Positions 730-8,621 of a DNA stretch of 64,000 nucleotides are shown in pieces. Numbering within the stretch: position 1 is the stretch's first letter; each line of letters opens with the position of its first letter. The DNA lies in assembly GCA_966077345.1 (NCBI GenBank), contig CBHREK010000010.1:18877-82876 (forward strand). Direction: 5' to 3'. The position numbers and the translations under genes are program-made. Source of the stretch: an uncultured Duganella sp. (GTDB lineage: Bacteria > Pseudomonadota > Gammaproteobacteria > Burkholderiales > Burkholderiaceae_D). Below the pieces are notes generated by a model. It was not told where the DNA came from. It ran no database searches and saw only the letters and a program-made list of their open reading frames with translations.

Positions 730-2349
730 TTAGCCGCGCAGTGCCTTTTGCGCTGCGCGGTAGCCCCACCAGGACGCTTCTTCGAACACGGAGAAGCCGC
801 TCAAGTCGGAGTGCGCAAACAGGACCGGGCCATCCATTTCGCGCAAGGCCTTCAGGCCCGCATCGCTGCGGAATCCCGGCACCGGAACCGCCATCGCATG
901 GCCGCGCAAAGTGATATCCACGCGCTCCACGCAACGTTCGAATTGTGCGCCGTAAGCCGCCTTCAGGTCGACGCTCGCCAGCGCCAGCAACTCTTCGCCG
1001 CTCGCTGCCATCATCCATTTGCGCGCCTCGCGCGGATCGCGGTCAGCCAGAGCCACGTAGCTGGTGAAGACCGTCTTCTCCGGCGGCGCCACGCGGATGT
1101 CCTGGTGCGTCGAGACCACGTAGCCCAGGCCTTTCGTCCCATGCACCACGTTATCCCATGACAGCGGCACCGCCGGCAGCTCCTGTGGAAAACGCTTCAT
1201 CAGGAAATTCGCCACCATCCATGGTGCGTGAATTTGCTTGTGGACGTCCGGCATGTTTTCCACAACCCTCGCCGCGACATGCAGCGGCATCGCGGAAATA
1301 ACGCGGCGCGCGCGGATCGTGAACGTGCGCGGCACACCGCGTTCGAGCGCAAAGCAAAGCACTTCCACGCCCCGCCCCTGGCCCGTGCCGCCACTGGCGT
1401 TATCCACCCGCACACGCACCGCGCTTCCCGCAAGGCGCTTGGGCCGTGCCAGCCGCTCCATCCCGCTGGCCAGCGCCTGCAGCCCCTCCGGCCAGGTCAG
1501 CCAGGCCCCCTGCTCCGCGTTCTCCGCTTCGCCGCCACGGCCGCAGAAGTAGTGCAAACCCGCCCAGGCGGAGACCGCATCAAGCCCCGCGCCGTAATCG
1601 TCGCGGCAGCAGTAGTCCATGTACCACAGCAAAGAAGGCGCGCGATAGCCATGCTGGGCAAGCCAGGCGCCAAAGCTCATGGCATCGAGCTGCGCCGCCT
1701 CCGCATCCGTCGACGAATGCTCGCTCGGGAAAGTGAACCTGCGTCTTCCATCCTCGCCGACCGCACTGCGCAACGCTTCCACTTGCGCAAAGAAGCGCTT
1801 GTGCTCGGCCAATTCGGCATCCGGCACCCCTTCATGCGGCAAGACGCCCTCCTGCCAGACGCCGTTGAACAGCAGCCGGTCTTCCGGCGCATGCAGCACA
1901 AAACGCTCGTCGTAATAAGGTTTGCGCGACGTTGCCCCGCGCTGGATCACGCCCAGGTCCGCCAGCAGTTCGCGCACATGGGCGCATTCCTCGGTCGGCA
2001 GCGGCAAGTAATGCGCGCCCGTCGGGTACCCCAACGCGCCGAATCGCCCGCCAGCAGCATTACCATATGGCTCGGGTCCATCCAGCATCAGGAAGTCATC
2101 ATGCCCCTGCTTTCGCAACTGCCAGGCAGCAGTCAACGCCGCAACACCGGAACCGAGGATCAGCACATCCGCCGACAATGACTGCGACGGTGCAGGCAAA
2201 GGCTTGCGGTCGCGCAGGAAGTGTCCTTCATCGCGCCCAGGTGCATTCACGACCGGCGTAATCTCCTGCCATCGCAGGTATCCAGCCACGCTGGCCGCAG
2301 CGGTAACGCCGCCGACAGCAGCCCAGGCCAGGAAAGAACGACGCAGCAT
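730..2349 (-). CDS. FAD-dependent oxidoreductase (amine oxidase-like) with twin-arginine-like N-terminus
   Basis: Rossmann motif VLILGSGVAALTAAW and GAHYLP; N-terminus MLRRSFL followed by a hydrophobic stretch; start overlaps the stop of the upstream speE-like gene by 1 nt. Confidence 0.8.
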   Translation of the reverse strand: MLRRSFLAWAAVGGVTAAASVAGYLRWQEITPVVNAPGRDEGHFLRDRKPLPAPSQSLSADVLILGSGVAALTAAWQLRKQGHDDFLMLDGPEPYGNAAGGRFGALGYPTGAHYLPLPTEECAHVRELLADLGVIQRGATSRKPYYDERFVLHAPEDRLLFNGVWQEGVLPHEGVPDAELAEHKRFFAQVEALRSAVGEDGRRRFTFPSEHSSTDAEAAQLDAMSFGAWLAQHGYRAPSLLWYMDYCCRDDYGAGLDAVSAWAGLHYFCGRGGEAENAEQGAWLTWPEGLQALASGMERLARPKRLAGSAVRVRVDNASGGTGQGRGVEVLCFALERGVPRTFTIRARRVISAMPLHVAARVVENMPDVHKQIHAPWMVANFLMKRFPQELPAVPLSWDNVVHGTKGLGYVVSTHQDIRVAPPEKTVFTSYVALADRDPREARKWMMAASGEELLALASVDLKAAYGAQFERCVERVDITLRGHAMAVPVPGFRSDAGLKALREMDGPVLFAHSDLSGFSVFEEASWWGYRAAQKALRG

Positions 2350-3860
2350 CAGCGAATCACCCTGCGCCAGTCCTGCTCGAATTCATGCACCAGCGATTGT
2401 GTGTTGAGGCGGTTCGGCGCCATCGGCAGCGGTTTCATGTCCGGTGGGAAGGCAAACATTGCCTTCGTGGTCTCTGCATTCAGGAAACGCATCGGCAGGC
2501 TGTACGCCTCGGGCGGCCGGTAATCAAGCTGCGGCGAAGCCATGATGAAGCCCCATTCGCCAAAAGACGGCACATACAGGTGATACGGCCAGGTACGCAT
2601 GCCTACGTCGCGCAACGTCGCATCCACCGTCCAATAGGCATGCGGCGCGAAGAACGGCGAGGTCGCCTGCACCACCACCAGGCCATTGGCGGCAATATGC
2701 TTCTTCAGCACGCCGTAGAACGGCACTGAATACAACTTGCCCAGCGCGAAACTGGAAGGATCGGGAAAATCGACAATCGCTGCATCGAACATGTCCTGGT
2801 TCTGCTGCAGCCAGATCGCCGCGTCGGCATTCACCACCGTCACGCGCTTGTCTCGGAAAGAACCCTTGTTCAGCGCCACCAGCTCATCGCGCTGGGTGAA
2901 GGCCGCCGTCATCGCCGGGTCCAGGTCCACCAGCGTAACGTGTTCGACCTGTGAATAACGCAGGACTTCGCGCAGCGCCAGCCCGTCGCCGCCGCCCAGG
3001 ATCAGCACCCGCTTGGCCCACGGCAGCGCGCCCATCACCGGATGCACCAGCGCTTCGTGGTACCGATATTCGTCGCGCGAGGAGAACTGCAGGTTGCCGT
3101 TGATGTACAGGCGCAGGTCGTCCTTCCACTTGGTGATCACCAGGCGCTGGTAAGGCGTGCTGGTCGAATACACGATTTCATCACCAAACAGCCCATGTTC
3201 GCCCCAACCGGTCAGCCGGTCCGCGCCACTGAAGCCGATCACCAGCGCCAGCATCACTGCGCTGGCGCGCAGCAAACGGCCCGCCACGTTCGCCAACTCT
3301 GTGCGAAAAACGACAATTGTCCACAGGGCCACCGCGATATTCAGCATCCCGAACAGGAAACCGGTGCGCACCAGGCCAAGCTGCGGCGCCAGCACCAGCG
3401 GGAACAGCAGCGACACCGCCAGCGCGCCAAGGTAATCGAAGGTCAGCACCCGGCTGACCAGCTCACTGAATTCCGTCTGGCGCGAATTCAGGGCGCGCAT
3501 CACCAGCGGAATCTCCATGCCCACCATGGCCCCCACCAGGAATACCATTGTGTAAAGCAAGGTGCGGAACGGCGCGGAAGCCCACGCAAAAGTCATGAAC
3601 AGCACTGCAGCCGACAGGCCGCCGATCAAGCCAACCGCCAGTTCAATGTCGACGAAGCGCGCCAGCACGTCTTCGTCCTTCACATACTTGGAGAAATGCG
3701 CTCCCACGCCCATCGCGAACAGGTAGCAGCCGATAATGGTGGAAAACTGCAGTACCGAGTCCCCCAGCAGGTAGCTGGAAAGCGCACCGGCGATTAATTC
3801 ATAGGCAAGTCCGCAAGAAGCGACGACGAACACTGAAACTATGAGAATCTTTTTGGTCAT
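2349..3860 (-). CDS. speE: Polyamine aminopropyltransferase (spermidine synthase-like) with N-terminal multi-pass membrane domain
   Basis: About 7 hydrophobic helices, then LYINGNLQFSS..YHEALVHP, LILGGGDGLALREVL and VDFPDP, typical of the dcSAM-binding fold. Confidence 0.88.
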   Translation of the reverse strand: MTKKILIVSVFVVASCGLAYELIAGALSSYLLGDSVLQFSTIIGCYLFAMGVGAHFSKYVKDEDVLARFVDIELAVGLIGGLSAAVLFMTFAWASAPFRTLLYTMVFLVGAMVGMEIPLVMRALNSRQTEFSELVSRVLTFDYLGALAVSLLFPLVLAPQLGLVRTGFLFGMLNIAVALWTIVVFRTELANVAGRLLRASAVMLALVIGFSGADRLTGWGEHGLFGDEIVYSTSTPYQRLVITKWKDDLRLYINGNLQFSSRDEYRYHEALVHPVMGALPWAKRVLILGGGDGLALREVLRYSQVEHVTLVDLDPAMTAAFTQRDELVALNKGSFRDKRVTVVNADAAIWLQQNQDMFDAAIVDFPDPSSFALGKLYSVPFYGVLKKHIAANGLVVVQATSPFFAPHAYWTVDATLRDVGMRTWPYHLYVPSFGEWGFIMASPQLDYRPPEAYSLPMRFLNAETTKAMFAFPPDMKPLPMAPNRLNTQSLVHEFEQDWRRVIR

Positions 3861-3924: not shown

Positions 3925-4311
3925 GTGAACGCCATCCTAAATTATCTGGTCCACCTGGCACTGGCCGCACTGTTGTTGGTAGTCTTCTTCAAAGCCTATA
4001 CATGGATGACGCCATATGACGAAGTAAAACTGATCCGGCAGGGCAACCATGCCGCAGCCCTGTCGCTGGGCGGCGCCATGCTGGGCTTTTCGATGACGAT
4101 CGCATCGAGCATCCTGCACACCAACGACTGGCAGCAGTTCCTGGCCTGGGCCCTGGGCGCCATGGTGGTGCAGGCGCTGGGCTATGCAGTCACGACGCGC
4201 TGCCTGAAAATGGCACAAGACCAGATTGAAGCCGACAACAGCGCTTTCGGCGGCCTGCTCGGCACTATTTCGCTTTCCATTGGCGGCATCAACGCCGCCT
4301 GCATTTCCTGA
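3925..4311 (+). CDS. DUF350 family membrane protein (YjfL-like)
   Basis: 4 TM helices; TPYDEVKLIRQGNHAAALSLGG and QIEADNSAFG match the DUF350 pattern. Confidence 0.8.
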   Translation: MNAILNYLVHLALAALLLVVFFKAYTWMTPYDEVKLIRQGNHAAALSLGGAMLGFSMTIASSILHTNDWQQFLAWALGAMVVQALGYAVTTRCLKMAQDQIEADNSAFGGLLGTISLSIGGINAACIS

Positions 4312-4322
4312 GAGGTCACATC

Positions 4323-5381
4323 ATGGGTATCGGCAGCTTTATCAAGAAGCAGTTTATCGACGTACTGCAGTGGAACGAGGACACCGAAGGCGTGCTGTCC
4401 TGGCGCTACCCAATGCAGGATTTCGAGATCCAGAACGGCGGTGTGCTGATCGTGCGTGAATCGCAAATCGCAGTATTCGTCAACGAAGGCCAGATCGCCG
4501 ACGTGTTCGGCCCGGGCACCCACAAGCTCACCACGCAAAACCTGCCGCTGCTGACCAACCTGAAGAACTGGGACAAGCTGTTCGACTCGCCGTTCAAGTC
4601 GGATGTGTATTTCTTCAGCACCCGCGTGCAGACCGGCCGCAAGTGGGGCACCCCGCAGCCGATCACGATCCGCGACAAGGATTTCGACATGATCCGCGTG
4701 CGCGCCTTCGGCATGTATTCCTACCGCGTGACCGATCCGCGCAAGTTCTTCACTGAATTGAGCGGCACCCGCAACATCTACACCCGCGACGACGTCGAAG
4801 ACCAGCTGCGCGGCATCCTGCTGGCCTCCATGGCCAATTCGCTGGGCGCCTCCCAGATCGCCTTCCTCGACATGGCTGCCAACCAGGCCCTGATGGCGCA
4901 GGAGGTCAAAGGCGGCCTGGCCGACGCGTTTGCGCGCTACGGCATCGGCCTGGATGAATTCAACGTCGCCAGCGTCAGCCTGCCGGAAGAACTGCAAGCC
5001 GCGCTGGACGAGCGTATCTCCGCCGGCATGAAGGGCGGCATGAGCGACGCCAAGATGGCCGGCTTCACCAAGTACCAGGTGGCGCAATCGATCCCGCTGG
5101 CTGCCGGCAACGAAGGCGGCCTGGCTGGCATCGGCGCAGGCCTGGGCGCCGGGCTGACCGTCGGCCAGGTGATGGGCCAGGCCATGGGCCAGGCGCTGAA
5201 TCCGGGCGCAGCACAGGCCCCGGCGCCTGCAGCTGCAGCTCCAGCCGCCCCCGCCGCGCCAGCGCAGGAATCGATCGAAGACCGCCTCGGCAAGCTGAAA
5301 GCCCTGTTGGACAAGGGCCTGATCTCGCCAGCCGACTACGACGCCACCAAGGCTGAACTGCTCAAAAAACTGATCGGATAA
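4323..5381 (+). CDS. SPFH/band-7-like protein (YdjI-like) with C-terminal SHOCT domain
   Basis: IVRESQIAVFVNEGQIADVFGPGTHKLTTQNLP, KWGTPQPI; Ala/Pro linker; C-terminal IEDRLGKLKALLDKGLISPADYDATKAELL. Confidence 0.85.
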   Translation: MGIGSFIKKQFIDVLQWNEDTEGVLSWRYPMQDFEIQNGGVLIVRESQIAVFVNEGQIADVFGPGTHKLTTQNLPLLTNLKNWDKLFDSPFKSDVYFFSTRVQTGRKWGTPQPITIRDKDFDMIRVRAFGMYSYRVTDPRKFFTELSGTRNIYTRDDVEDQLRGILLASMANSLGASQIAFLDMAANQALMAQEVKGGLADAFARYGIGLDEFNVASVSLPEELQAALDERISAGMKGGMSDAKMAGFTKYQVAQSIPLAAGNEGGLAGIGAGLGAGLTVGQVMGQAMGQALNPGAAQAPAPAAAAPAAPAAPAQESIEDRLGKLKALLDKGLISPADYDATKAELLKKLIG

Positions 5382-5391
5382 GCCAGGCCGC

Positions 5392-6873
5392 ATGCAAACA
5401 GTTTCCTGCCCTAGCTGCGGCGCAGAGGTCAACTTCCGCTCGCACGCTTCCGTCATGGCGGTGTGCGAGTACTGCAATACGCGCGTACTGAAGGAAGCCG
5501 GCGCGGTCAAAGACCTGGGCAAGATTTCCTCCGTGCTGGAGGACTATTCCCCGATCCAGGTCGGCACCAGCGGCGTGCTGGGCGGCCGCAATTTCAATGT
5601 CGTCGGCCGCATCCAGCTGCGTTACGACGCGGGCATGTGGAACGAGTGGTTCATCGTGTTCGACGACGCCACCAGCGGCTGGCTGGGCGACGCGTCCGGC
5701 CAGTACACGGTGACCACCCTGCGCAAACCCGATGCGCAGCTACCGGCCTTTGAGGACATCCAGCCTGGCAAACCCTACCAGTTGGTGGGCGCTCGCTATA
5801 TGTCGGCCGACGTCAGGACCGCGCAGTGCATCGGCGGCCAGGGCGAACTGCCGTTCAAGGTGGGCGATGGCTGGGAGGCAAAAGTCGCCGACTTCCGGCG
5901 CGCCGATCATTTCATTACCCTCGATTATTCCGACGAGGGACCGCCGCAGATGTTTACCGGCGTTTCGGTCACGCTGGAAGCCATGCAGGCGCAGTTGCTG
6001 CGCGATGTGGAGGAGATCAAGCGCACCAGCGGCCGTTACCGCGGCAAGCTCGATGCGCTGGACTGCCCAAACTGCGGCTCCCAGATCAAGTACCTGCCCG
6101 GCTTGACGGCAAACCTGGTCTGCCAGTCATGCCAGACTGAGATCGATGCAGCGAGCCCGAAGGCCGAAGTCATCGCCATCGGCCAGCGGCAGGAGAAAGA
6201 ATACTTCACGCTCCCACTGGGGGCTTCCGGCAAGCTGGGCAACCAGGACTTTACCGTCATCGGCGTGATGCGCCGGGCCGACGATGAAGGCAGCGGCTGG
6301 ACCGAATACCTGTTGTACGGTAGCCGGAACGGCTTCACTTGGCTGGTCGAAACGGCAGACGGCTGGTCGCGCGCCAACGTCATGGATCAGTGGCCTGACG
6401 CCAAGATACTGGATTCGCAAACGGTCACCTTCGACAAAGCCGACTACAGCAAACTGTATGACTACAACTCTGTCGTCACCTACGCGGCAGGCGCCTTCAA
6501 TTGGCGCGTGCAGGTGGGCGACCACACCCATGTCTACGAATACAAGCGCCAACAGGTAACGCTGGCGGCCGAACTGACGACCACTGAACTTGGCTGGTCG
6601 CGCTCCACCCCGGTGGCCTGGGACCAGCTCAAAGCCTGGTTCGGCGACGCCGTCAAAGGCGAGGACAAGACCAGCGGCGAGGTTGCACAGGATTTCAGCA
6701 AAGGCCGCTACAAGCGTTCAGCCAAGAACTGGATGATTGGCATCCTGGTGCTGAATGCCATTCCGTTGCTGTTCAATTTCGGCGGCACCATCGGCGTCAC
6801 TATCCTGGCCTGCCTTTCTCTTTACCTGCCGGCCCTGTTGCTGGACGCAATCGACGACCAAACGAAAAAATGA
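5392..6873 (+). CDS. DUF4178 domain protein with two Zn-ribbon/DUF4178 repeats and C-terminal TM hairpin
   Basis: CPSCG..CEYC and CPNCG..CQSC ribbons, each followed by a GRIQLRY/GVMRRAD..W.E(W/Y) module; hydrophobic C-terminus. Confidence 0.8.
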   Translation: MQTVSCPSCGAEVNFRSHASVMAVCEYCNTRVLKEAGAVKDLGKISSVLEDYSPIQVGTSGVLGGRNFNVVGRIQLRYDAGMWNEWFIVFDDATSGWLGDASGQYTVTTLRKPDAQLPAFEDIQPGKPYQLVGARYMSADVRTAQCIGGQGELPFKVGDGWEAKVADFRRADHFITLDYSDEGPPQMFTGVSVTLEAMQAQLLRDVEEIKRTSGRYRGKLDALDCPNCGSQIKYLPGLTANLVCQSCQTEIDAASPKAEVIAIGQRQEKEYFTLPLGASGKLGNQDFTVIGVMRRADDEGSGWTEYLLYGSRNGFTWLVETADGWSRANVMDQWPDAKILDSQTVTFDKADYSKLYDYNSVVTYAAGAFNWRVQVGDHTHVYEYKRQQVTLAAELTTTELGWSRSTPVAWDQLKAWFGDAVKGEDKTSGEVAQDFSKGRYKRSAKNWMIGILVLNAIPLLFNFGGTIGVTILACLSLYLPALLLDAIDDQTKK

Positions 6874-7043
6874 ATAAATTCTTCGGCTACGCCCTGGTGG
6901 TGAGCATGTTCAGCGTCGGCACCAGCTGGATCAAGTTTGTCAGCGGCCCATCGTCGAGCAGCGGCGGCGGCTATCACGGCAGCAGCTGGTCTTCCAGCTC
7001 CGGCAGCTGGGGCAGCGGTGGTGGCGGTGGAGGCCATAAGTGA
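6870..7043 (+). CDS. 57-aa hydrophobic-N-terminus Gly/Ser-rich peptide ending GGGGGGHK (below the ORF-track cut-off)
   Basis: Hand translation: MNKFFGYALVVSMFSVGTSWIKFVSGPSSSSGGGYHGSSWSSSSGSWGSGGGGGGHK*. Its ATG overlaps the upstream stop (ATGA 6870-6873) and its stop overlaps the speD start (GTGA 7040-7043). Confidence 0.8.
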   Translation: MNKFFGYALVVSMFSVGTSWIKFVSGPSSSSGGGYHGSSWSSSSGSWGSGGGGGGHK

Positions 7044-7399
7044 GCATTCACCAACCCAGCGGCACGCACCTGCTGGCCGACATGTCCGGCATCGAGCCGG
7101 GCCTGCTGGCAGACTGCACAAGGATTGAGCAATTGCTGCGCGGCGCCGCAGCCGCAGCCGGCGCACAGGTACTGCACAGCCACTTCCACAGCTTCGGCAC
7201 CGGGCTGGGTGTGACCGGCGTGGTGCTGCTGGCGGAGTCCCATATCTCGATCCACACCTGGCCCGAGAACGGCTTTGCAGCCGCCGACATCTTCATGTGC
7301 GGCGCCGCCCAGCCGCACCTGGCGCTGGAGGTGATCGAGGAAGCGCTGCAGCCCGAGTGTTCCGAAGTCCGCACCGTCGACCGCGAGCCACCGCATTGA
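7040..7399 (+). CDS. speD: S-adenosylmethionine decarboxylase proenzyme (short class)
   Basis: GVTGVVLLAESHISIHTWPE contains the E-S autocleavage site; GTHLLAD; DIFMCG. Confidence 0.92.
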   Translation: MSIHQPSGTHLLADMSGIEPGLLADCTRIEQLLRGAAAAAGAQVLHSHFHSFGTGLGVTGVVLLAESHISIHTWPENGFAAADIFMCGAAQPHLALEVIEEALQPECSEVRTVDREPPH

Positions 7400-7424
7400 C
7401 TTGCCCCGCCGCCGGTGCGACACT
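7396..7424 (+). promoter_or_regulatory. Putative sigma70 promoter for the rsgA leader
   Basis: TTGACT (7396-7401), 17-nt spacer, TG extension (7416-7417), GACACT (7419-7424). Confidence 0.5.
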
Positions 7425-7459
7425 GGCCGCTTTCCCACCCACCTGACAGGAGATTTGCC

Positions 7460-7498
7460 ATGCGTTCGTTTGATCTTGCCCTCCTGTCGGCTGCCTGA
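7460..7498 (+). CDS. Putative leader peptide MRSFDLALLSAA upstream of rsgA
   Basis: Strong SD (AGGAG, 7448-7452) 7 nt before the ATG. GACAGGAG (7445-7452) is complementary to CTCCTGTC (7481-7488) inside the uORF. Confidence 0.55.
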   Translation: MRSFDLALLSAA

Positions 7499-7607
7499 CC
7501 TTCAGCGTTTGAGCTAGAGCGCCCGGCCGGGCGCCGACATTTCCAGACTACCCCTGCTTGCCACGCAGCGCGTGGCTGGCCGTGTTCACCCATGGAAAAC
7601 GCTCATC

Positions 7608-8621
7608 ATGATCGACTTCGACTACGAAGCATTACGCAGCATCGGACTTAACAACACCATCATTTCGCGCCTGGCCGAGGCACCTGCCGGCCGCCTGTAC
7701 CGCATCACCGAATATCAACGCGACCGCATCAGCCTGCACGACGGCGTGGCCGAAATTCACGCACGCGCCCTGCCCCGCCTGCTCGCCGAGACAGCGCTCT
7801 GCGTCGGCGACTGGGTGATCGCGCAGCTCAACTCCTTAAACGAGGTGTGGATAAATCACCGTTTATCCCCAATGAATCAATTCGCCCGCGCCGATTCGCC
7901 ACCCATCGCGAGCAATATCGATACCGCCTTGCTGGTCATGGGCCTGGATGGCGACTTCAATTTGCGCCGCATTGAACGCTACCTGGCGCTCGCCGCGGCC
8001 GCCGAAGTCACGCCCCTGATCGTCCTCAGCAAACCGGATCTCTGCGCCGACATTGATGGCCGGGTGGCCGCGCTGACGGAACGGCTGCCGCCGCGCACGC
8101 AGTTCCTGCTGGTGAACGGCACCAGCGCGGAATCCATCACGCAGCTGGATCCCTGGCTAGGCCCTGGACAAACCATCTGCCTGCTTGGTTCTTCCGGCGC
8201 CGGCAAGTCAACCTTGACCAACGCCCTGGCTGGAGCAACGCAGGAAACCGGCGGCGTGCGGCGTACCGACCATCGCGGCCGGCATACGACAACCGCCCGG
8301 TCGATGCATTTCTGCCCTTCCGGCGCCTGCATCATCGATACGCCGGGCTTGCGCAGCCTGAGCCCGGAATCCTTGTCGTCGGCCTTCGACGATATCGAAT
8401 CGCTGGCTGCAGGCTGCCAGTTCCGCGATTGCCGGCACGAGGGCGAACCCGGCTGCGCAGTACTGGGCCATGTGGACCCCGACCGCCTGCACAACTTCCA
8501 CAAGCTGCAACGCGAAGTGCGCCGCAACCGGCAAACTGCGCTGGAACGGATTGCTGAACGGCAGAAATGGAAGTCGCTGATGAAGTCGGCCGCTGCGCGC
8601 AGCCGGCAAAAGCGCAGCTAG
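7608..8621 (+). CDS. rsgA: Ribosome small subunit-dependent GTPase A (probable paralog)
   Basis: Circularly permuted GTPase: LSKPDL, GSSGAGKSTL, GRHTTT, DTPGLR; Zn finger CQFRDCRHEGEPGCAV. Start at ATG 7608 preferred over GTG 7572. Confidence 0.9.
   Translation: MIDFDYEALRSIGLNNTIISRLAEAPAGRLYRITEYQRDRISLHDGVAEIHARALPRLLAETALCVGDWVIAQLNSLNEVWINHRLSPMNQFARADSPPIASNIDTALLVMGLDGDFNLRRIERYLALAAAAEVTPLIVLSKPDLCADIDGRVAALTERLPPRTQFLLVNGTSAESITQLDPWLGPGQTICLLGSSGAGKSTLTNALAGATQETGGVRRTDHRGRHTTTARSMHFCPSGACIIDTPGLRSLSPESLSSAFDDIESLAAGCQFRDCRHEGEPGCAVLGHVDPDRLHNFHKLQREVRRNRQTALERIAERQKWKSLMKSAAARSRQKRS

What the first reader, a model, noticed from the sequence alone, without database searches (positions are those of the whole stretch)
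6870..7043. Uncalled 57-aa Gly/Ser-rich microprotein ending GGHK, candidate substrate of the system
Seen: the ORF falls under the 60-aa track cut-off but is translationally coupled on both sides. It has a hydrophobic N-terminal segment, then a flexible S/G/W/Y/H low-complexity tail ending in a single terminal Lys. Inference: a membrane-anchored disordered tail with a terminal epsilon-amine is a plausible acceptor for aminopropyl transfer, analogous to Gly-rich tails proposed as substrates in GSP-synthase-like operons. It could act as a RiPP-like or membrane-scaffold element recruited by the SPFH protein.
Basis: partly seen in the sequence, partly recalled or inferred. Interest (0 to 1): 0.7.

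Follow-up and report, generated by a model that had tools for sequence, protein, structure and literature searches.

The report
Lysine-tailed envelope microprotein of aminopropylation operon
This 57-codon gene is real and widely conserved: it makes a tiny membrane-anchored protein whose floppy tail always ends in a lysine, which makes it a concrete, testable candidate for what a long-puzzling membrane-bound "spermidine synthase" actually modifies.

Summary
ORF 6870-7043 (+) overlaps the DUF4178 stop (ATGA) and the speD start (GTGA). It encodes a hydrophobic helix plus a 76% Gly/Ser tail ending His-Lys.

It is a genuine gene:
- An equivalent ORF sits beside DUF4178 in about 105 of 106 syntenic loci, in Proteobacteria, Acidobacteriota, Gemmatimonadota and a Fibrobacteres-labelled MAG.
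- 263 of 264 database homologues end in Lys.
- dN/dS is lowest in this frame.

New here:
- The same TM + tail + Lys module is fused to the C-terminus of DUF4178 in several lineages. It also ends the 190-370 aa lipoproteins of PspA-type versions of the operon.
- TM parity, lipobox variants, a Tat signal on the flavin amine oxidase, and a 7-TM model plus positive-inside bias for the SpeE-like enzyme all point to the periplasmic face.

The acceptor-of-aminopropyl reading fits this but is untested (about 0.45). Periplasmic dcSAM chemistry would be unprecedented. RiPP-like and SPFH-recruitment ideas find no support.

Part of the Gly run doubles as speD's Shine-Dalgarno.

The operon type is published (Li 2019; Ravi 2024). 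This scan had already flagged "lysine-tailed microproteins" in the same system on other genomes.

The parts
6870..7043 (+). Microprotein gene (57 codons + stop): N-terminal anchor helix, Gly/Ser/aromatic tail, terminal His-Lys
6879..6932 (+). Codons 4-21, hydrophobic anchor (FFGYALVVSMFSVGTSWI). Gly17 aligns with the lipobox Cys of about 8% of homologues (TSC/SSC)
6939..7040 (+). Codons 24-57, low-complexity tail (76% Gly+Ser) with the conserved GSSWSS and GSW motifs, predicted to lie in the periplasm
7035..7040 (+). Terminal His56-Lys57 codons (CAT AAG). Lys is invariant family-wide. His is kept in most Proteobacteria and replaced by Gly, Ile or Val elsewhere. CAY/AAR vary synonymously
7029..7033 (+). 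GGAGG inside Gly54-Gly55 codons: the Shine-Dalgarno of speD, 6 nt before its GTG. This is a nucleotide-level constraint on part of the Gly run
5392..6873 (+). DUF4178 protein: two Zn-ribbon + DUF4178 units with no signal peptide, and a C-terminal 2-TM hairpin. It is the constant neighbour of the microprotein and its fusion partner in other lineages
7040..7399 (+). speD, class-1b S-adenosylmethionine decarboxylase (dcSAM supply), translationally coupled to the microprotein
2349..3860 (-). 7-TM + spermidine-synthase-like aminopropyltransferase (PRK03612). The catalytic domain is predicted on the side opposite the N-terminus, which is the periplasm
730..2349 (-). Tat-signal (RRSFL) flavin amine oxidase of the MAO / putrescine-oxidase fold
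3925..4311 (+). DUF350 (YjfL-family) membrane protein, first gene of the + arm
4323..5381 (+). SPFH/Band_7_1 protein with a C-terminal SHOCT domain

Best explanation
Shown: 6870-7043 is a real, translationally coupled gene for a member of an undescribed microprotein family. The family has no Pfam or NCBIfam model. It belongs to the AdoMetDC / 7TM-spermidine-synthase-like / DUF350 / DUF4178 / flavin-oxidase envelope system.

Inferred, with good support: the protein is anchored in the inner membrane by its N-terminal helix (a lipid anchor in some relatives). It dangles a 28-47-residue flexible tail into the periplasm, and the only universally fixed feature of that tail is a C-terminal lysine.

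Inferred mechanism, untested:
1. SpeD makes dcSAM in the cytoplasm.
2. The 7-TM domain of the SpeE-like protein, which carries invariant acidic residues inside its helices, passes or presents dcSAM to its periplasm-facing catalytic domain.
3. That domain transfers one or more aminopropyl groups to the epsilon-amine of the tethered C-terminal Lys.
4. The Tat-exported flavin amine oxidase then trims, cleaves or cross-links the product.

DUF4178 holds the anchor through its TM hairpin. It couples the module to the cytoplasmic SPFH or PspA scaffold.
For: Gene reality:
- ATGA and GTGA overlaps.
- Conserved ORF in about 105 of 106 loci.
- 183 representative clusters, all 45-65 aa.
- The lowest dN/dS is in this frame, 0.17 over the last 12 codons.
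- No Rfam match and no internal promoter or terminator.

Terminal Lys:
- 263 of 264 homologues end in K.
- Endings vary (..GGHK..YHK..PTHK..GRIK..YxGGK..RLGK) across Proteobacteria, Acidobacteriota, Gemmatimonadota and a Fibrobacteres-labelled MAG.
- The Lys persists where the next gene is DUF350 rather than speD, so the speD RBS or overlap cannot explain it.

Module logic: the same tail + Lys is carried by three different anchors.
- A free TM helix.
- The C-terminus of DUF4178 (L044-L050, L088, L089, L152).
- 190-370 aa lipoproteins of PspA/CesT-type clusters ending ..SRGK or ..GGGK.

Same side of the membrane:
- There is always an odd number of TMs (1 or 3) between the signal-less Zn-ribbon DUF4178 domain and the tail.
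- 21 of 264 homologues have a lipobox-like Cys.
- The oxidase has an RRxF[LI] Tat motif in 54 of 61 orthologues, often followed by a lipobox.
- The SpeE-like protein has 7 TM helices in an AF2 model (pLDDT 89). Its K+R count is 11.4 in the N-terminus and even loops against 2.4 in the odd loops, over 79 sequences (the window protein plus 78 orthologues).
- Gamma-type homologues also show 7 hydrophobic segments.

Enzyme competence:
- GGGDG and the D-x-x-D-P motif are invariant.
- The closest solved relatives are the T. thermophilus triamine/agmatine aminopropyltransferase and thermospermine synthases, which take bulky acceptors.

Genome-level co-occurrence: speE7TM was found in 5 of 5 genomes where it is not next to the microprotein.

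Literature:
- Ravi et al. cite Li et al. 2019 for 'aminopropylation of other substrates'.
- From my own knowledge of the Li et al. 2019 abstract (Biochem J 476:2579; the paper is not held): these bacteria lack spermidine, and the fusion does not complement speE.
Against:
- A dcSAM-dependent domain in the periplasm has no precedent that I know of, and it needs dcSAM export. The topology rests on AF2 helix count plus the positive-inside rule, not on experiment.
- The microprotein's own flanking charges are nearly neutral as to orientation (1.15 against 0.74 K/R).
- Both canonical Asp residues of the acceptor site are retained. That would equally suit a small di- or polyamine, or a lipid or peptidoglycan amine.
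- Part of the Gly-Gly conservation is explained by speD's SD.
- The C-terminal aromatic-basic-Lys pattern also fits Lpp-like peptidoglycan attachment.
- No paper in the library mentions aminopropyl-lysine.
Confidence: 0.45

Rival explanations
1. The microprotein is a non-substrate subunit or regulator. It is the detachable third TM helix of DUF4178. Its tail acts as a pseudo-substrate, plug or sensor for the periplasmic enzymes. The true aminopropyl acceptor would be an envelope lipid head-group, a peptidoglycan amine or a small amine.
For: - The tightest linkage is to DUF4178, not to speE: adjacency is kept when speE is elsewhere, and the two are fused in several lineages.
- A polytopic membrane domain plus a periplasmic catalytic domain is the layout of lipid-modifying enzymes such as EptA and ArnT (own knowledge).
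- The canonical acceptor-site Asp residues are retained.
- Ravi et al. suggest that the system alters membrane structure.
Against: - A purely structural helix would not need an invariant C-terminal Lys at the end of an otherwise freely evolving low-complexity tail.
- It would also not need the same Lys tail on unrelated anchors such as the lipoproteins.
Confidence: 0.27
2. It is an Lpp/OprI-like tether. The epsilon-amine of the C-terminal Lys is covalently linked to peptidoglycan by an L,D-transpeptidase. This would tie the inner-membrane DUF4178/SPFH (or PspA) stress module to the wall.
For: - It is a small envelope protein with a periplasmic tail and an obligatory C-terminal Lys.
- Many members end aromatic-basic-Lys (YHK, FHK), like Lpp's ..YRK (own knowledge).
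- Some members are predicted lipoproteins.
- The operon is associated with envelope-stress proteins.
Against: - This reading does not explain the strict genomic coupling to AdoMetDC, an aminopropyltransferase and an amine oxidase.
- The tail is Gly/Ser-rich and presumably disordered, unlike the Lpp coiled coil.
- No L,D-transpeptidase is in the cluster.
Confidence: 0.12
3. The terminal Lys is the substrate of the Tat-exported flavin amine oxidase alone. It would be oxidised to an aldehyde for cross-linking or signalling, while the aminopropyltransferase works on something else.
For: - The oxidase has an MAO / putrescine-oxidase / spermidine-dehydrogenase-like fold.
- It is exported to the same compartment as the tail.
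- The oxidase gene accompanies speE7TM in most loci.
Against: - Some clusters with a Lys tail show no oxidase in the stretch fetched, for example the gamma PspA-type loci L139-L148.
- Flavin amine oxidases of this fold usually act on small amines (own knowledge).
Confidence: 0.1
4. It is not a functional gene. The open frame would be a by-product of GC-rich spacer DNA and of the Shine-Dalgarno and start of speD.
For: - GGA GGC (GGAGG) before the speD start is conserved at the nucleotide level in 19 of 26 genus loci.
- High-GC DNA carries many spurious ORFs.
Against: - The ORF, its anchor helix and the terminal Lys persist at 30-50% identity, in low-GC genomes, and where speD is not the downstream gene.
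- CAY/AAR vary synonymously.
- dN/dS is frame-specific.
- There are gene fusions to DUF4178.
Confidence: 0.02

Closest known systems
'LipoSIG + Ctha_1186 + low-complexity' lipoprotein of the CesT/Tir-PspA + 7TM-spermine-synthase + YjfL(DUF350) + DUF4178 operon (Ravi et al. 2024, mSystems, PMC11237479; Shewanella oneidensis SO_3765 neighbourhood)
   Same: - It belongs to the same operon family and takes the same place next to DUF350/speE or DUF4178.
- It is envelope-anchored with a low-complexity Ser/Gly tail.
- In the gamma-proteobacterial clusters of that architecture examined here, the lipoproteins also end in Gly-Lys.
   Different: - The window protein has no lipobox Cys and no globular Ctha_1186 domain. 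It is only anchor + tail, 57 aa.
- In the parts of the paper and supplement that I read, the C-terminal Lys is not mentioned.
AdoMetDC + membrane-protein/SpdSyn-like fusion + DUF350 clusters (Li, Kurihara, Kim, Liang, Michael 2019, Biochem J 476:2579; cited in PMC11237479; abstract recalled from my own knowledge)
   Same: The enzymes are the same: class-1b AdoMetDC, a membrane-fused SpdSyn-like protein (PRK03612, 685 bits) and DUF350. The open question is also the same: the acceptor is not putrescine.
   Different: As far as I know that work did not consider a ribosomal peptide or protein acceptor, and did not note the micro-ORF. The paper itself could not be read here.
PspA-free Band-7 + SHOCT variant of the polyamine-linked operons with AdoMetDC and polyamine oxidase (Ravi et al. 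2024)
   Same: Band_7_1 + SHOCT protein, AdoMetDC, flavin amine oxidase and DUF350 are all present.
   Different: The published description pairs that variant with an ATP-grasp (GSP-synthetase-like) ligase, DUF1190 and DUF2491. This window has the 7TM-SpdSyn and DUF4178 instead.
Braun lipoprotein Lpp / Pseudomonas OprI (own knowledge)
   Same: A small envelope protein whose C-terminal Lys epsilon-amine is the functional group. The ending is aromatic/basic-Lys.
   Different: - Lpp is an outer-membrane lipoprotein with a trimeric coiled coil. It is linked to peptidoglycan by L,D-transpeptidases and has no polyamine enzymes nearby.
- The window protein is Gly/Ser-rich, lacks a lipobox, and sits in an aminopropylation operon.
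Lysine-linked polyamines on proteins: diatom silaffins (long-chain polyamines on Lys; PMC12029483) and eIF5A hypusine
   Same: A Lys epsilon-amine in a Ser/Gly-rich peptide carries propylamine-type units. Diatoms pair AdoMetDC with aminopropyltransferases.
   Different: These are eukaryotic, the lysines are internal, and the enzymes and compartments differ. No such modification has been shown in bacteria, and none has been shown here.

Membership tests
AdoMetDC / 7TM-SpdSyn-like / DUF350 / DUF4178 envelope operon (Li 2019; Ravi 2024) | Membrane-fused spermidine-synthase-like protein with about 7 N-terminal TMs | tested here: met
   PF01564 at 6e-36; NF002956 (PRK03612) at 685 bits against a cut-off of 472; 7 TM helices in the AF2 model
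AdoMetDC / 7TM-SpdSyn-like / DUF350 / DUF4178 envelope operon (Li 2019; Ravi 2024) | Class-1b AdoMetDC in the cluster | tested here: met
   PF02675 at 4.8e-35; TIGR03330 at 127 bits against a cut-off of 75.65
AdoMetDC / 7TM-SpdSyn-like / DUF350 / DUF4178 envelope operon (Li 2019; Ravi 2024) | DUF350 (YjfL) and DUF4178 proteins, with a Band-7/SHOCT or PspA/CesT scaffold | tested here: met
   PF03994, PF13785, PF13421 + PF09851; synteny holds in more than 100 loci
Lys-tailed microprotein family (defined here) | 45-65 aa, one N-terminal hydrophobic helix, low-complexity tail, C-terminal Lys, adjacent or fused to DUF4178 | tested here: met
Ctha_1186-type lipoprotein (Ravi 2024) | Lipoprotein signal peptide with a lipobox Cys | tested here: not met
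   The window has Gly17 where about 8% of homologues have TSC/SSC
Ctha_1186-type lipoprotein (Ravi 2024) | Globular Ctha_1186 domain between the signal and the tail | tested here: not met
   Only about 35 residues follow the anchor and all are low-complexity. The lipoproteins of L139-L147 are 190-370 aa
Ctha_1186-type lipoprotein (Ravi 2024) | Low-complexity C-terminal region, in the operon with DUF350 and 7TM-SpdSyn | tested here: met
Lpp/OprI peptidoglycan-linked lipoproteins | Lipobox plus an alpha-helical coiled-coil body | tested here: not met
   There is no Cys, and the tail is 76% Gly/Ser
Lpp/OprI peptidoglycan-linked lipoproteins | C-terminal Lys covalently bound to peptidoglycan | not testable with these tools
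   The C-terminal Lys is present; linkage needs biochemistry
RiPP precursor peptide | Leader/core peptide with a neighbouring RiPP-class modifying enzyme, protease and/or exporter | tested here: not met
   The Pfam and NCBIfam scans of all neighbours show none. The N-terminus is a membrane anchor rather than a leader
DUF1190 (YjfM) lipoprotein of GSP-synthetase-like operons | Match to the DUF1190 profile; ATP-grasp ligase in the operon | tested here: not met
   The microprotein matched 0 Pfam families at E<=0.01, and there is no ATP-grasp gene in the cluster
Protein-lysine aminopropylation substrate (hypothetical class) | dcSAM- and enzyme-dependent +57 Da adduct(s) on the Lys | not testable with these tools
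   Needs mass spectrometry. No literature hit for aminopropyl-lysine

The most novel reading that the evidence does not exclude
Bacteria in several phyla run a periplasmic protein-aminopropylation pathway:
1. dcSAM made by SpeD is handed across the inner membrane by the 7-TM domain of a SpeE-like enzyme.
2. The outward-facing catalytic domain of that enzyme builds one or more aminopropyl units on the C-terminal lysine of a tethered carrier. The carrier may be a microprotein, a DUF4178 tail or a lipoprotein tail.
3. This yields a membrane-anchored, ribosomally primed polyamine, which a Tat-exported flavin oxidase remodels or releases.

If true, this would be the first protein-lysine aminopropylation in bacteria and the first SAM-derived group transfer in the periplasm.
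Probability: 0.35. Interest if true: 0.9.

Novelty: new variant of a known kind. Interest (0 to 1): 0.66.

Why it matters
Thousands of bacterial genomes encode a functional AdoMet decarboxylase together with a membrane-fused spermidine-synthase-like enzyme, yet they make no spermidine. That is the finding of Li et al. 2019, recalled from my own knowledge. What this enzyme aminopropylates has been open since then.

A co-encoded carrier whose single invariant feature is a primary amine on a flexible tether turns that question into a one-week mass-spectrometry experiment.

If the topology inferred here is right, the chemistry happens outside the cytoplasmic membrane. That would be new for SAM-derived cofactors. 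It would also link polyamine-type chemistry to envelope-stress scaffolds (SPFH, PspA).

The system occurs in environmental Burkholderiales. It also occurs in commensal Neisseria, Burkholderia, Ralstonia, Achromobacter and Cupriavidus.

Even if the Lys tail is not the acceptor, the family is a clean example of a functional sub-60-aa gene that length cut-offs hide.

Tried and rejected
- Pfam and NCBIfam scans of the microprotein gave no family.
- An Rfam scan of 6500-7500 gave only one chance-level hit, so there is no RNA-element explanation.
- The promoter/terminator scan found nothing on the + strand inside the operon.
- Searching phylum-level genomes with a profile of the HK-type peptides found only Burkholderiales members. 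A broader profile missed the Neisseria copies that are really there. Negative profile searches for this low-complexity family are therefore unreliable. Synteny-guided inspection was needed instead.
- The microprotein's own flanking charges do not settle its orientation.
- A sequence search of the flavin oxidase against the PDB found nothing. Only the fold search placed it.
- Li et al. 2019 is not held in the library. Citing papers gave no further detail on the membrane enzyme.
- No paper mentions aminopropyl-lysine.
- RiPP, DUF1190 and C-terminal sorting-signal readings were considered and dropped. There are no matching enzymes or profiles, and the TM helix is at the N-terminus, not the C-terminus.
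Full report
**1. The observation**

- ATG 6870 lies in ATGA, across the TGA stop of the 493-aa DUF4178 gene (5392-6873).
- The stop at 7041-7043 lies in GTGA, across the GTG start of speD (7040-7399).
- The 57-aa product has a hydrophobic segment (residues 4-21) and a 34-residue tail with 13 Gly and 13 Ser. W, Y and H are interspersed, and the tail ends His-Lys.

The neighbours were confirmed by Pfam and NCBIfam.
- On the + arm: DUF350 (3925-4311), Band_7_1 + SHOCT (4323-5381), a double Zn-ribbon/DUF4178 protein, the micro-ORF, then a class-1b AdoMet decarboxylase.
- On the divergent arm: a membrane-fused polyamine aminopropyltransferase (PRK03612, 685 bits; 2349-3860) and a flavin amine-oxidase-family protein (730-2349).
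- No Rfam family, internal promoter or terminator interrupts the + arm.

'Uncalled' is true only of the 60-aa display cut-off. This exact protein is in NCBI, JGI, ENA and UniRef on 33 contigs as 'hypothetical protein'. By its SpeE-like protein (99% identical), the window is closest to Pseudoduganella sp. R-43.

**2. Is it a gene?**

Close relatives:
- A word-indexed search found 28 close homologues of 53-59 aa, all ending GGGGGGHK.
- In 24 other genomes of the genus and two other families of the order, an ORF of 50-60 aa lies between DUF4178 and speD. It ends ..GGHK (once GSHK). In 25 of 26 loci (own locus included) its stop overlaps the speD start.
- A profile search brought the total to 127 homologues, all ending xxHK.

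Wider search:
- An exhaustive HMM search of 1.84 billion representative proteins gave 183 hits at E<=1e-3, all 45-65 aa.
- Of the 137 new ones, 136 end in Lys: 126 HK, 9 GK and 1 YK. The exception is a truncated fragment.

Selection:
- Nei-Gojobori dN/dS on a codon alignment of about 40 Oxalobacteraceae copies has a median of 0.51 in this frame. It is 0.44 for the anchor and 0.17 for the last 12 codons.
- The five alternative frames give 0.78-1.44.
- Caveat: the alignment was built on this frame's translation, which favours it somewhat.

One nucleotide-level caveat matters. Gly54-Gly55 are GGA GGC, so GGAGG (7029-7033) sits 6 nt before the speD GTG. The rare GGA codon is kept in 19 of 26 loci, so part of the Gly run doubles as speD's Shine-Dalgarno. 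The His and Lys codons do vary synonymously (CAT/CAC, AAG/AAA). The Lys also persists where speD is not the downstream gene (section 3).

**3. How far does it go, and what is constant?**

Synteny-guided inspection of loci from order-, class- and phylum-level genome samples, plus 80 named loci, showed the element in every lineage that has the system. The loci were found with the SpeE-like protein.

| Lineage | Tail ending |
|---|---|
| Duganella, Janthinobacterium, Massilia, Telluria, Noviherbaspirillum, Cupriavidus, Ralstonia, Zoogloea, Agitococcus | ..GGHK |
| Burkholderia | ..GSHK or ..GAHK |
| Achromobacter, Uliginosibacterium | ..FHK |
| Propionivibrio, Sterolibacterium, Sulfuritalea, Chitinimonas, Competibacteraceae | ..YHK or ..FHK |
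| A Fibrobacteres-labelled MAG | ..YNHK |
| Two unnamed families outside the window's class (f102, f103) | ..PTHK, ..GR[IV]K |
| Bryobacteraceae and Terriglobia | ..RY[TIV]GGK or ..RWFGGK |
| Roseisolibacter (Gemmatimonadota) | ..RYRLGK |

- In many of these the downstream gene is DUF350, not speD.
- An automated scan found a TM + K-terminated ORF or extension within 1.3 kb downstream of DUF4178 in 98 of 106 loci. Seven of the 8 misses were threshold failures, and the ORF was seen by hand.
- One locus, L061 (Pseudoduganella sp. UC29_71), has an extra G in a G-run 8 codons from the end.
- Neisseria copies were missed by the profile but are present.

So across the loci inspected only three features are constant: an N-terminal anchor (often followed by a GWS or SW motif), a flexible tail of 28-47 residues, and a C-terminal Lys.

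**4. Three carriers for one tail**

- In one sampled Burkholderiales family (f58; L045-L050), in one genome of another order (L044), in two Moraxellaceae loci (L088, L089) and in Neisseria elongata (L152), the anchor + tail + ..GG[GSA]HK is the C-terminal extension of the DUF4178 protein itself.
- N. sicca has the split form, so both forms occur within one genus.
- In gamma-proteobacterial clusters the gene order is lipoprotein - DUF350 - 7TM-SpdSyn - DUF2170 - PspA - DUF4178. Pfam confirmed this for L145. It is the 'LipoSIG+Ctha_1186+Low-comp' operon of Ravi et al.. There the 190-370 aa lipoproteins end in Ser/Arg/Gly-rich tails terminated ..SRGK..RSGK or ..GGGK.
- In Accumulibacter and Dechloromonas, where the SpeE-like gene lies elsewhere, the microprotein stays beside DUF4178.
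- In 5 of 5 genomes where the two were not adjacent, the SpeE-like gene was present elsewhere.

The microprotein is therefore best described as the minimal, TM-anchored variant of a carrier whose functional part is a tethered C-terminal lysine. Its fixed partner is DUF4178, not the SPFH protein.

**5. Which side of the membrane?**

- DUF4178 starts with a Zn-ribbon and has no signal peptide, so its body is cytoplasmic.
  - The split form has a 2-TM hairpin, and the microprotein adds a third TM.
  - The fused forms have 1 or 3 TMs before the tail.
  - The number is always odd, so the tail is periplasmic.
- About 8% of homologues (21 of 264) have a lipobox-like Cys at the position of Gly17. The gamma carriers are lipoproteins.
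- The oxidase carries RRSFL. An RRxF[LI]-type motif is present in 54 of 61 orthologues, including Acidobacteriota, and is often followed by a lipobox.
  - Its AF2 model (pLDDT 91.7) is nearest to bacterial MAO, putrescine oxidase, protoporphyrinogen oxidase and spermidine dehydrogenase SpdH.
- The SpeE-like protein folds (pLDDT 89) with seven TM helices (2-32, 35-59, 62-94, 98-126, 131-161, 163-184, 192-211), a linker helix and the catalytic domain.
  - Over 79 sequences (the window protein plus 78 orthologues) the N-terminus and loops 2/3, 4/5 and 6/7 carry 11.4 K+R. Loops 1/2, 3/4 and 5/6 carry 2.4.
  - Longer gamma-type homologues also show seven hydrophobic segments.
  - By the positive-inside rule the catalytic domain faces the periplasm.
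- Invariant acidic or polar residues sit inside the helices (E21, D34, E73, E116, D142, N174). This is compatible with passage of a cationic ligand, but that is inference.
- The catalytic motifs (GGGDG, D364-x-x-D367-P) are invariant.
- The nearest solved enzymes are the T. thermophilus triamine/agmatine aminopropyltransferase and thermospermine synthases.

**6. Mechanism**

- Shown: this is a conserved, coupled gene. It has an invariant C-terminal Lys on a flexible tail. It is physically linked to DUF4178 and co-occurs in genomes with a catalytically intact aminopropyltransferase and AdoMetDC.
- Inferred with reasonable support: the tail, the aminopropyltransferase domain and the oxidase share the periplasmic face.
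- Inferred without a test: the Lys epsilon-amine is the acceptor or primer for aminopropyl transfer, and the oxidase processes the product.

I put this at about 0.45. The main obstacle is that dcSAM-dependent chemistry outside the cytoplasm has no precedent that I know of.

The rivals are:
- A non-substrate subunit or pseudo-substrate, with a lipid or wall amine as the true acceptor (0.27).
- An Lpp-like peptidoglycan tether, suggested by the aromatic-basic-Lys endings (0.12).
- A substrate of the oxidase only (0.10).
- Not a gene (0.02).

**7. What is known, and novelty**

- The operon type is published. Ravi et al. 2024 (PMC11237479) describe the 7TM-SpdSyn/DUF350/DUF4178/lipoprotein and Band-7/SHOCT/AdoMetDC/oxidase variants. 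They cite Li et al. 2019 for aminopropylation of non-polyamine substrates.
- Neither source, in the parts I could read, mentions a micro-ORF or a conserved terminal lysine.
- No Pfam or NCBIfam model covers the family.
- No paper in the library mentions aminopropyl-lysine.
- Silaffins (PMC12029483) and hypusine are the nearest chemical precedents, and both are eukaryotic.
- This scan had already met the same system on other genomes. Earlier follow-up agents reached the same 'lysine-tailed microprotein' reading. That is repetition, not independent evidence.

- the DUF4178 fusions;
- the equivalence with the lipoprotein tails;
- the topology argument;
- the SD caveat;
- the frame-specific selection test.

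**8. Limits**

- Topology is predicted, not measured.
- Genome samples are draws, and related genomes are not independent.

Noticed in passing
L061:3790-4000 (-) (Pseudoduganella sp. UC29_71, NZ_CP170549.1): This is the only broken copy seen. An extra G in TCGGGGCGGCGGAGG, 8 codons before the end, shifts the frame so that ..GGGGHK* is read in another frame. It is either a real frameshift or a homopolymer sequencing error.
   Followed up: partly
window 7029-7042: The speD Shine-Dalgarno (GGAGG) is written inside the Gly54-Gly55 codons of the microprotein, and the speD GTG start uses the last base of the Lys codon. The rare GGA codon is kept in 19 of 26 related loci, so this stretch is under dual coding and RBS constraint.
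   Followed up: yes
window 730-2349 (-) and orthologues in L076-L130: The flavin amine oxidase has a Tat signal (RRSFL). In many orthologues the Tat signal is followed by a lipobox (LAGC, LSGC, LAAC), so these would be Tat-exported lipoproteins. The fold is nearest to bacterial MAO, putrescine oxidase and SpdH.
   Followed up: yes
window 2349-3860 (-): The 7-TM domain of the SpeE-like protein carries invariant acidic or polar residues inside its helices (E21, D34, E73, E116, D142, N174). The layout looks like a binding or translocation path for a cation, possibly dcSAM.
   Followed up: partly
L152:35-1483 and L154:1319-1483 (Neisseria elongata, N. sicca): Commensal Neisseria carry the system with the SpeE-like gene on a different contig. 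One species has the split microprotein (..YSGGHK) and the other has the DUF4178-fused tail (..FSGGHK). The profile search had missed both.
   Followed up: yes
window 7572-8621 (+): An RsgA-family GTPase paralogue follows the cluster. Its position downstream of speD is conserved in several Oxalobacteraceae loci (L056, L058, L059, L061, L065, L105). Any link to the system is unknown.
   Followed up: no
L037 (G116:C2:162900-173000): A microprotein (..SSSGHK) + speD pair stands without DUF4178, SPFH or speE within 5 kb. The SpeE-like gene is on another contig of that genome.
   Followed up: partly
L143:7459-7617 (oriented coordinates, gamma PspA-type cluster): A 52-aa predicted lipoprotein rich in His/Gly/Asp (..GHDHGYGGGYGGDH..) lies just after the SpeE-like gene. 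It does not end in Lys, so it may be a different small envelope protein.
   Followed up: no
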